From the human T2T-CHM13v2.0 reference genome, Homo sapiens: a stretch of 64,000 nt of DNA. This document shows, piece after piece, positions 20,866 to 21,888 of this stretch. The position numbers and the translations under genes are program-made. The stretch lies in the NCBI GenBank assembly GCA_009914755.4, contig CP068257.2, positions 33,536,001-33,600,000 of the forward strand, given 5' to 3'. The notes under the pieces are model-generated. The model was not told the DNA's origin and searched no databases. It saw only the letters and a list, made by a program, of their open reading frames with translations. Numbering within the stretch: position 1 is the stretch's first letter; each line of letters opens with the position of its first letter.

Positions 20866-21888
20866 TTTTTTTTATTATTATTATACTTTAAGTTTTAGGG
20901 TCCATGTGCACAATGTGCAGGTTAGTTACGTATGTATACATGTGCCATGCTGGTGTGCTGCACCCATTAACTCATCATTTAGCATTAGGTATATCTCCTA
21001 ATGCTATCCCTTCCCCCTCTCCCCACCCCACAACAGTCCCCAGAGTGTTCCCCTTCCTGTGTCCATGTGTTCTCATTGTTCAATCCCCATCTATGAGTGA
21101 GAACATGCGGTGTTTGGTTTTTTGTCCTTGCAATAGTTTACTGAGAATGATGATTTCTAATTTCATCCATGTCCCTAAAGAGCTTCTGCACAGCAAAAGA
21201 AACTACCATCAGAGTGAACAGGCAACCTACAACATGGGAGAAAATTTTCACAACCTGCTCATCTGACAAAGGGCTAATATCCAGAATCTACAATGAACTC
21301 AAACAAATTTACAAGAAAAAAACAAACAACCCCATCAAAAAGTGGGCAAAGGATATGAACAGACACTTCTCAAAAGAAGACATTTATGCAGCCAAAAGAC
21401 ACATGAAAAAATGCTCATCATCACTGGCCATCAGAGAAATGCAAACCAAAACCACAATGAGATACCATCTCACACCAGTTAAAATGGCAATCATTAAAAA
21501 GTCAGGAAACAACAGGTGCTGGAGAGGATGTGGAGAAACAGGAACACTTTTACACTGTTGGTGGGACTGTAAACTAGTTCAACCATTGTGGAAGTCAGTG
21601 TGCTGATTCCTCAGGGATCTAGAACTAGAAATACCATTTGACCCAGCCATCCCATTACTGGGTATATACCCAAAGGACTATAAATCATGCTGCTATAAAG
21701 ACACATGCACACGTATGTTTATTGCGGCACTATTCACAATAGCAAAGACTTGGAACCAACCCAAATGTCCAACAATGATAGACTGGATTAAGAAAATGTG
21801 GCACATATACACCACGGAATACTGTGCAGCCATAAAAAATGATGAGTTCATGTCCTTTGTAGGGACACGGATGAAATTGGAAATCATT
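20866..21888 (-). mobile_element. Young L1 (L1PA2-4-like) insertion with 5' inversion (twin-priming structure)
   Basis: Segment A (20866-21180) is antisense L1 3' UTR/ORF2 end, starting with a T-run plus ttattattattatactttaagttttagggtccatgtgcacaatgtgcagg and ending catgtccctaaag. Segment B (21181-21888) is sense L1 ORF2 C-terminal sequence (agcttctgcacagcaaaagaaactaccatcagagtgaacaggcaacc ... gatgagttcatgtcctttgtagggacacggatgaaattggaaatcatt). It is nearly identical to the young L1 consensus and yields ORF 21169-21606 (+) with ORF2 motifs. A and B are contiguous in L1 coordinates with about 35 bp of overlap at the inversion point. Confidence 0.85.

What the first reader, a model, noticed from the sequence alone, without database searches (positions are those of the whole stretch)
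20866..21888. Young L1 insertion with a textbook twin-priming 5' inversion
On the plus strand the element reads as an antisense L1 3' terminus (20866-21180, T-run first). This is followed directly by sense ORF2 C-terminal sequence (21181-21888), which ends about 35 bp past the L1 position where the antisense piece stops. In minus-strand terms this is an inverted upstream segment joined to a direct 3' segment plus poly-A, with a short duplication at the inversion junction. That is the signature of twin priming during target-primed reverse transcription. Both pieces are very close to the young L1PA consensus, so the insertion is probably hominoid-specific and could be polymorphic. It sits immediately beside or inside an MLT1 LTR (21889 onward).
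Basis: partly seen in the sequence, partly recalled or inferred. Interest (0 to 1): 0.55.

Follow-up and report, generated by a model that had tools for sequence, protein, structure and literature searches.

The report
Ordinary L1 insertion with 5' inversion
This is a roughly 1 kb dead copy of the primate L1 jumping gene whose front part was pasted in backwards during insertion, a well-known and common by-product of how L1 copies itself, so it is ordinary.

Summary
Window 20866-21177 (+ strand) is an antisense L1 3' end: a T8 run, the 3'UTR, and ORF2 codons 1244-1275. Window 21175-21887 is sense L1 ORF2, codons 1016-1253. On 16 independent colinear L1 copies the two pieces overlap by exactly 28 nt, not about 35. 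They meet at a 3-nt microhomology (CTA, 21175-21177).

Both pieces carry the same subfamily variants. They are 97.8% and 97.1% identical to the best reference, and their private divergence is similar (about 1.8% overall).

Twin priming during target-primed reverse transcription is by far the best explanation.

It is not quite "textbook". No clean target-site duplication is present. The only candidate is a T-rich 12-mer (TTTCTGTTGTTT/AAA at 21887-21898) matching TTTC+T8 at 20862-20873 with 2 mismatches.

The copy is not L1HS: it has GAG where the L1HS-type references have ACA. Its estimated age is about 6-28 Myr, an L1PA3-5 grade. A hominoid-era origin is therefore plausible but was not tested. 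Insertion polymorphism in humans is unlikely.

5'-inverted L1s make up 18-31% of recent L1 insertions, so novelty and interest are low.

The parts
20866..20873 (-). Complement of the short poly-A tail (A8). In the L1 sense it is followed by G, AAAA, G (20860-20865). These bases may be tail remnant or target.
   Evidence: sequence. One search shows reference L1 copies ending TATAATAATAAT + A-run at the same point.
20874..21177 (-). Non-inverted (poly-A-primed) L1 cDNA: ORF2 codons 1244-1275 with the stop codon, plus the whole 3'UTR. It is 304 nt long and has a 5-nt deletion near 21048.
   Evidence: ORF2p residues 1242-1274. (aligns to reference positions 2186-2502)..
21175..21177 (.). Inversion junction. 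CTA can be read as the end of the antisense piece (CCCTA|caaagg) or as the start of the sense piece (ttaaa|CTAAAGAGC), so it is a 3-nt microhomology.
   Evidence: five reference L1 copies give the same flanking L1 sequence on both sides.
21175..21887 (+). Inverted (internally primed) L1 cDNA: ORF2 codons 1016-1253, 713 nt. It aligns without gaps to reference L1s at up to 98.0% identity. One stop codon, no frameshift.
21150..21177 (-). Copy 1 of the 28 nt of L1 sequence present in both cDNAs (ORF2 codons 1244-1253).
   Evidence: 2 mismatches in 28 between the copies, one private change in each.
21860..21887 (+). Copy 2 of the duplicated 28 nt. Its outer end is where the inverted cDNA was primed.
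20862..20873 (+). Candidate left copy of a degenerate target-site duplication (TTTCTTTTTTTT). It overlaps the T-run.
   Evidence: It is within 2 mismatches of the right candidate. About 5% of EN-like sites in the window and 0.5% of all 12-mers do as well.
21887..21898 (+). Candidate right copy of the target-site duplication (TTTCTGTTGTTT). It is followed by AAACC, which gives an L1-endonuclease-like TTT/AAA nick site at 21898/21899.
   Evidence: This is an inference, not shown.
21888..21946 (+). Target DNA: the 3'-terminal ~60 nt of an LTR-type repeat. It begins exactly at the L1 boundary.
   Evidence: similar to 22255-22313, shuffle p = 0.0005. (78% identity to the end of a recalled MLT1-type consensus, from memory only).
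21951..22317 (+). A second, 5'-truncated copy of the same kind of LTR. It is context only and not part of the L1 insertion.
   Evidence: A further fragment of the family lies at 19250-19371.

Best explanation
A single L1 retrotransposition event of an L1PA3-5-grade element, in minus-strand orientation, was resolved by twin priming.

1. Shown by anatomy: one cDNA was primed from the poly-A tail on the nicked plus strand. It copied the last ~310 nt of the L1 RNA (now 21177 down to 20874, plus the tail).
2. Shown by anatomy: a second cDNA lies in the opposite orientation. It starts at ORF2 codon 1253 and runs 713 nt towards the 5' end of the RNA, to codon 1016.
3. Inferred: the second cDNA was primed by the other target strand annealing inside the same RNA. 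The first reverse transcriptase ran 28 nt past that priming site, which produced the duplication.
4. Inferred from the 3-nt microhomology: the 3' ends of the two cDNAs were joined at CTA.

The result is a dead, ~1.0 kb, 5'-inverted L1 with no function of its own.

Most likely the event made an 11-12 nt target-site duplication (TTTCTGTTGTTT), and its left copy was later partly lost when the poly-T tract contracted. I put this at roughly 50%. Alternatively the insertion was accompanied by a target-site deletion, roughly 35%.
For: - ORF2p mapping places the pieces at residues 1016-1253 (sense) and 1242-1274 plus the stop (antisense).
- The overlap is 28 nt on all 16 independent colinear L1 references and 27 nt on the in-window L1.
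- Only the antisense piece ends in the L1 3' terminus plus an A-run. The sense piece stops inside ORF2 with no tail.
- The junction shows a 3-nt CTA microhomology.
- Both copies of the duplicated 28 nt carry the same minority variants (A, T, T at reconstruction positions 702, 703 and 710, shared by only 27-35% of references).
- Near-private substitutions number 10/713 in the sense piece and 8/304 in the antisense piece. Fisher p = 0.20, so the ages are the same.
- Segment lengths of 713 and ~310 nt are comparable to germline 5'-inverted L1s, whose medians are 751 and 571 nt. Overlaps between the two cDNAs occur in 42% of germline cases (PMC12016303).
- The definition and the expected microhomologies come from PMC2837659 and PMC2912911.
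Against: - No clean TSD flanks the composite. The longest exact flank match is a 7-mer (ATCATTT) lying 11 nt from the T-run, and 20% of shuffles do as well.
- The T-rich 12-mer candidate needs either two G-to-T differences or one later deletion, and about 5% of EN-like sites match as well.
- 5'-inverted L1s normally have 10-17 bp TSDs.
- The 28-nt overlap is longer than usual. The reported median is 12 nt, with quartiles 4-17.
- The A-tail is only 8 nt.
- No empty orthologous site could be examined.
Confidence: 0.9

Rival explanations
1. Two independent L1 insertions. A 312-nt 5'-truncated L1 in minus orientation landed next to, or at the edge of, an older plus-orientation L1 ORF2 fragment.
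For: No TSD bounding the whole composite could be shown.
Against: - The sense piece has no 3' end, no poly-A and no TSD of its own, and it stops inside ORF2.
- L1 does not continue to the left of the antisense piece, as it would for a nested insertion.
- The L1 coordinates abut with a 28-nt overlap on 16 references.
- The subfamily variants are the same and the private divergence is equal.
Confidence: 0.03
2. An ordinary 5'-truncated ~1.0 kb L1 inserted, and its 5' 713 nt were later inverted by a DNA rearrangement.
For: The end product is an inversion. The 28-nt inverted repeat could be imagined as a substrate for recombination.
Against: - A later inversion does not create the 28-nt duplication of L1 sequence.
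- One breakpoint would have to fall exactly at the 5' end of the element.
- Recombination between the two 28-nt arms presupposes the duplication it is meant to explain.
Confidence: 0.02
3. Two-template variant ('dual priming' or template switching). The inverted cDNA was copied from a second L1 RNA molecule of the same subfamily rather than from the same RNA.
For: Dual priming with two mRNAs has been proposed (PMC2837659). Sequence alone cannot tell one RNA molecule from two identical ones.
Against: - The near-contiguity of coordinates (28-nt overlap) is expected if both primers sat on one RNA, and would be a coincidence with two.
- Dual priming as proposed starts both cDNAs on poly-A, which is not the case here. 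The inverted piece starts at ORF2 codon 1253.
Confidence: 0.04
4. Assembly artefact in the source of the window.
For: Every metagenome-derived human contig that reaches this L1 breaks down inside it. That shows how easily this repeat misassembles.
Against: - The junction has the exact anatomy expected of a biological twin-priming event: the 28-nt overlap, the microhomology, and the tail on one piece only.
- Private substitutions run through both pieces.
Confidence: 0.01

Closest known systems
5'-inverted L1 insertions made by twin priming (Ostertag and Kazazian 2001; described in PMC2837659, PMC2912911, PMC12016303)
   Same: - An inverted upstream segment is joined to a non-inverted 3' segment that carries the poly-A.
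- The two segments are nearly contiguous on L1 and share a short stretch of sequence.
- There is microhomology at the inversion junction.
- The segment lengths are typical.
   Different: - No clean 10-17 bp TSD is present.
- The 28-nt overlap lies in the upper tail of the reported distribution (median 12 nt).
- The A-tail is short (8 nt).
Ordinary 5'-truncated L1PA insertions
   Same: The 3' end, the tail and the T-rich left junction look like standard target-primed reverse transcription. The total length of ~1 kb is typical.
   Different: The 5' 713 nt are in the opposite orientation.
L1 insertion-associated target-site deletion
   Same: A clear TSD is lacking. The flanking LTR fragment is cut off exactly at the L1 boundary.
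   Different: No empty site is available to show that anything was deleted. A degenerate 12-nt TSD candidate exists.
Poly(T)-headed twin-priming variants and dual priming (PMC2837659)
   Same: The same family of two-primer mechanisms.
   Different: In those variants the non-inverted part is only the tail. Here it is ~310 nt of L1 and ends in a normal tail.
Endonuclease-independent L1 insertion (PMC1920257)
   Same: No obvious TSD.
   Different: The L1 3' end is intact, an A-run is present, and the junction is T-rich. Those insertions typically lack such features. This comparison rests on my knowledge of that paper's abstract and title, seen.

Membership tests
Twin-priming (5'-inverted) L1 insertion | Two adjacent fragments of the same L1 in opposite orientation | tested here: met
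Twin-priming (5'-inverted) L1 insertion | The non-inverted fragment ends in the L1 3' terminus plus poly-A, and the inverted fragment has no tail | tested here: met
   The tail is only A8.
Twin-priming (5'-inverted) L1 insertion | The fragments are nearly contiguous in L1 coordinates, with a small gap or overlap at the internal priming site | tested here: met
   A 28-nt overlap on 16 of 16 full references and 27 nt on the in-window L1.
Twin-priming (5'-inverted) L1 insertion | Target-site duplications bound the whole composite | tested here: inconclusive
   There is no exact repeat longer than 7 nt. A candidate degenerate 12-mer has 2 mismatches and overlaps the T-run.
Twin-priming (5'-inverted) L1 insertion | An L1 endonuclease-type nick site (TTTT/A-like) | tested here: inconclusive
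   The left junction reads ...CTTTTC|T8. The candidate nick TTT/AAA lies at 21898/21899. The empty site is needed to settle this.
Twin-priming (5'-inverted) L1 insertion | Microhomology at the inversion junction | tested here: met
   CTA, 3 nt.
Twin-priming (5'-inverted) L1 insertion | Both fragments come from one template, i.e. the same subfamily and the same age | tested here: met
   Shared minority variants in both 28-nt copies. Private divergence is 1.4% in the sense piece and 2.6% in the antisense piece, Fisher p = 0.20.
L1HS (human-specific, potentially polymorphic L1) | The 3'UTR diagnostic ACA/ACG trinucleotide and other L1HS states (the naming of the diagnostic is from memory) | tested here: not met
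   The window has GATGAGTTAATGGG where the L1HS-type references L009 and L024 have GACACATTAGTGGG. It also differs at four more 3'UTR positions.
Primate L1PA lineage | High nucleotide identity of ORF2 and the 3'UTR to human-genome L1PA copies, and of the protein to human ORF2p | tested here: met
   93.7% amino-acid identity to PDB 8sxt ORF2p. 97.8% and 97.1% nucleotide identity to L001. The exact subfamily name could not be tested because no curated consensus library was available.
MLT1 (MaLR) LTR, for the right-hand neighbour | Alignment to a curated MLT1 consensus | not testable with these tools
   Only a consensus recalled from memory was aligned: 64% identity over 21951-22317 and 78% over 21881-21946. 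Other fragments of the family occur in the window.

The most novel reading that the evidence does not exclude
The insertion never had a target-site duplication. In this reading, twin priming took place at a resected or double-strand break and deleted the upstream ~320 nt of the LTR whose last ~60 nt now abut the L1. That would make it an L1 insertion-mediated deletion combined with a 5' inversion.
Probability: 0.3. Interest if true: 0.15.

Novelty: already known. Interest (0 to 1): 0.08.

Why it matters
It matters little. 5'-inverted L1s are 18-22% of new germline and somatic insertions (PMC12016303). They are about 31% of human- and chimpanzee-specific L1s and about 10% of all human L1 copies (PMC2912911).

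This copy is a clean worked example of the internal anatomy: the 28-nt overlap and the 3-nt junction microhomology. Its only unusual point is the missing or degenerate TSD. One look at an orthologous empty site would settle that.

Tried and rejected
- **Orthologues through exact-protein look-ups of locus-specific ORFs.** The ORFs at 21169-21606, 20904-21266, 20428-20607 and 20735-21001 are not on record.
- **ORFs 21715-21900 and 21995-22180.** These returned ten human-associated metagenome contigs (L080-L090; L080 and L082 are two windows on one JGI contig). Where they follow the window they are 98.9-99.9% identical to it. Every one leaves the window inside a repeat: at 21397, 21540, 21688 (twice), about 21701, 21749 and 21796 in the L1, and at 21978 in the LTR. 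L087 and L089 simply start at 21686 and 21862. I read these as repeat-induced chimeras. None spans the junction or the left flank, and none is from a non-human primate.
- **Metagenome scan with a 20-mer across the inversion junction.** It gave one unrelated chance hit, L079.
- **TSD searches.** I tried exact matches, Hamming scans and shuffles. No convincing TSD emerged.
- **Left flank as the missing half of the LTR.** The similarity is weak (p = 0.036-0.06) and in the wrong register, so I rejected this.
- **3' transduction reading of GAAAAGTACTC next to the tail.** There is no second poly-T tract to the left, so I rejected this.
- **Rfam.** No hits in the window.
- **Ostertag and Kazazian 2001.** The paper is not held in the library. 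The mechanism is cited from later open papers.
- **Exact L1PA subfamily name.** No curated consensus was available. The grade was inferred from the ordered 3'UTR states among the references and from divergence.

Full report
**What is there.**

The plus strand reads as follows:
- unique DNA ending ...GAGTACTTTTC;
- a T8 run (20866-20873);
- ATTATTATTATACTTTAAG..., the reverse complement of an L1 3' terminus, running to about 21177;
- sense-strand L1 ORF2 sequence up to 21887;
- then TTCTGTTGTTTAAACC..., which is not L1.

Translation of the plus strand from 21172 gives a 238-codon match to human ORF2p residues 1016-1253 (PDB 8sxt). E = 4e-155, 223 of 238 residues are identical, and there is one stop and no frameshift. 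Translation of the minus strand from 21199 matches ORF2p residues 1242-1274 and stops where ORF2 stops. By protein coordinates the two pieces therefore share about ten codons.

**Independent references.**

No repeat library was available. I searched species-representative bacterial and archaeal genomes with the ORF2 fragment and recovered 78 contigs. They are evidently human L1 contamination of those assemblies.

Sixteen of them cover the whole region colinearly. On every one:
- the sense piece (21175-21887) aligns end to end without gaps, at 96.6-98.0% identity;
- the antisense piece aligns from 28 nt before the point where the sense piece ends through to the L1 terminus;
- the overlap is therefore 28 nt in 16 of 16 references.

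An older colinear L1 in the same window (29542-32038, antisense) gives 27 nt. The duplicated stretch is 21150-21177 versus 21860-21887. It has 2 mismatches in 28, one private change in each copy.

**Junctions.**

- *Internal junction.* The window reads CCATGTCCCTAAAGAGCTTC. Antisense L1 would continue CCCTA|CAAAGG, and sense L1 reads TTAAA|CTAAAGAGC. CTA (21175-21177) therefore belongs to both, a 3-nt microhomology.
- *Outer end of the inverted piece.* L1 would continue ...ATCAT|CATTCTC, but the window continues TTCTGTTG.

**One event or two.**

Several facts point to one event:
- Only the antisense piece has an L1 3' end and an A-run.
- The sense piece stops inside ORF2, with no tail.
- There is no L1 to the left of 20866.
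- Both copies of the 28-nt duplication carry the same minority variants (GAAATTGGAAATC type), found in only 27-35% of the references.
- Changes shared with fewer than 12% of the references number 10/713 in the sense piece and 8/304 in the antisense piece (Fisher p = 0.20). The antisense piece also has one 5-nt deletion.

This is the anatomy of twin priming as the literature defines it. One cDNA is primed on the poly-A. A second is primed by the other target strand inside the same RNA. The two cDNA ends are then joined, often at microhomology (PMC2837659; PMC2912911). Overlap between the two cDNAs is seen in 42% of germline cases, with median 12 nt and quartiles 4-17. Median lengths are 751 nt for the inverted cDNA and 571 nt for the non-inverted one (PMC12016303). 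Here the values are 28, 713 and about 310 nt. That is typical apart from a rather long overlap.

**What is not textbook: the target site.**

5'-inverted L1s are normally flanked by 10-17 bp TSDs. Here:
- The longest exact repeat between the flanks is a 7-mer (ATCATTT). It lies 11 nt away from the T-run, and 20% of shuffles give as much.
- The best positioned candidate is TTTCTGTTGTTT (21887-21898). It abuts the L1 end and is followed by AAACC, a TTT/AAA endonuclease-like site at a typical TSD distance. It matches TTTCTTTTTTTT (20862-20873) with 2 mismatches.
- Only 0.5% of all 12-mers of the window, but 4.9% of EN-like 12-mers, match the left junction zone that well.

This reading needs the present T8 run to be what remains after one deletion inside TTTC-TGTTGTTT-(T)n. 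That is plausible for a poly-T tract but not shown.

The alternative is an insertion with a target-site deletion. The right flank is the last ~60 nt of an LTR-type repeat, cut off exactly at the L1 boundary. The left flank shows only weak similarity to that LTR, and in the wrong register. I cannot decide between these two readings without an empty orthologous site.

**Age and subfamily.**

- The best reference, L001, is 97.8% (sense piece) and 97.1% (antisense piece) identical.
- In the 3'UTR the window copy has GATGAGTTAATGGG, where the L1HS-type references (L009, L024) have GACACATTAGTGGG.
- It also keeps older states at four further positions that younger-looking references have changed. 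It has the younger states at four positions where older-looking references differ.
- It is therefore an intermediate L1PA grade. From memory this corresponds to L1PA4 or L1PA5, but that was not tested against curated consensus sequences.
- Near-private substitutions amount to 18/1017 = 1.8% (95% interval 1.05-2.8%). At 0.10-0.22% per Myr the central estimates are 8-18 Myr. With the interval on the count, the range is about 5-28 Myr.
- The hominoid L1PA5-to-L1Hs series spans 20.4 to 3.1 Myr (PMC5237266).

A hominoid-era insertion is thus plausible. A human insertion polymorphism is unlikely.

**Attempts to see the locus elsewhere.**

Exact-protein look-ups of locus-specific ORFs and one metagenome scan returned only human-derived contigs and one chance hit. 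All of the human contigs become chimeric inside the L1 or the LTR, so they confirm only the right-hand L1/flank junction. Where they follow the window they match it at 98.9-99.9%, which indicates that the window is human.

**Verdict.**

This is a known and frequent outcome of L1 integration: 18-31% of recent insertions. The only open point is whether the event left a now-degenerate 12-nt TSD or deleted target DNA. Interest is low.

Noticed in passing
L001-L078: 78 contigs deposited as parts of bacterial or archaeal genome assemblies carry primate L1 ORF2 and 3'UTR sequence. Hosts include Streptomyces JCM strains, Mycobacterium, Alcanivorax and several MAGs. These are human-DNA contamination of those assemblies.
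   Followed up: partly
L081 1-1606 and L088 1-743, joined to window 21688: Two contigs from different samples of one human gut project share the same foreign left part (99.5% identical) and the same break at window 21688, behind a degenerate T-rich tract. A minus-strand AATAAA lies at 21717-21722. A retrocopy or transduction that ends at that signal is not excluded. A repeat-induced chimera is the simpler reading.
   Followed up: partly
L080-L090 versus window 21397-21978: Apart from L087 and L089, which simply begin inside the L1 sense piece (21686, 21862), every human-associated metagenome contig that reaches this locus leaves the window sequence inside the L1 sense piece or the LTR, each into a different sequence. 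This is typical low-coverage host-DNA misassembly.
   Followed up: yes
window 20126-20156: A perfect run of 31 T with no recognisable Alu or L1 body on either side.
   Followed up: no
window 29542-32038: An older antisense L1, at least 2.5 kb long and 89% identical to reference L001. It runs past the start of the reference and explains the strong AT skew of 30001-32000.
   Followed up: partly
window 35577-35732: A short plus-strand L1 3'-end fragment (~150 nt, 91-93% identical to the copy studied) with an A-rich tail (AAAAAAAGA repeats).
   Followed up: no
window 21881-21946 and 21951-22317: The last ~65 nt of an LTR-type repeat are followed directly by a second copy of the same kind of LTR that lacks its first ~86 nt. 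This odd tandem arrangement predates the L1. Another fragment lies at 19250-19371.
   Followed up: partly
window 21169-21606: A 145-codon ORF starts at an ATG supplied by the antisense L1 piece and reads in frame across the inversion junction into ORF2 codons 1016-1157. It is not on record as a called gene.
   Followed up: yes
window 53456-53610, 52452-52501, 13010-13117: Microsatellites: (TCCT)n of ~40 units, a perfect (AC)25, and a GA/GGAA-rich purine tract.
   Followed up: no
L079 4796-4815: A TARA Oceans scaffold matches the 20-mer across the inversion junction exactly but is otherwise unrelated. It shows that a 20-mer can hit by chance in a collection of this size.
   Followed up: yes
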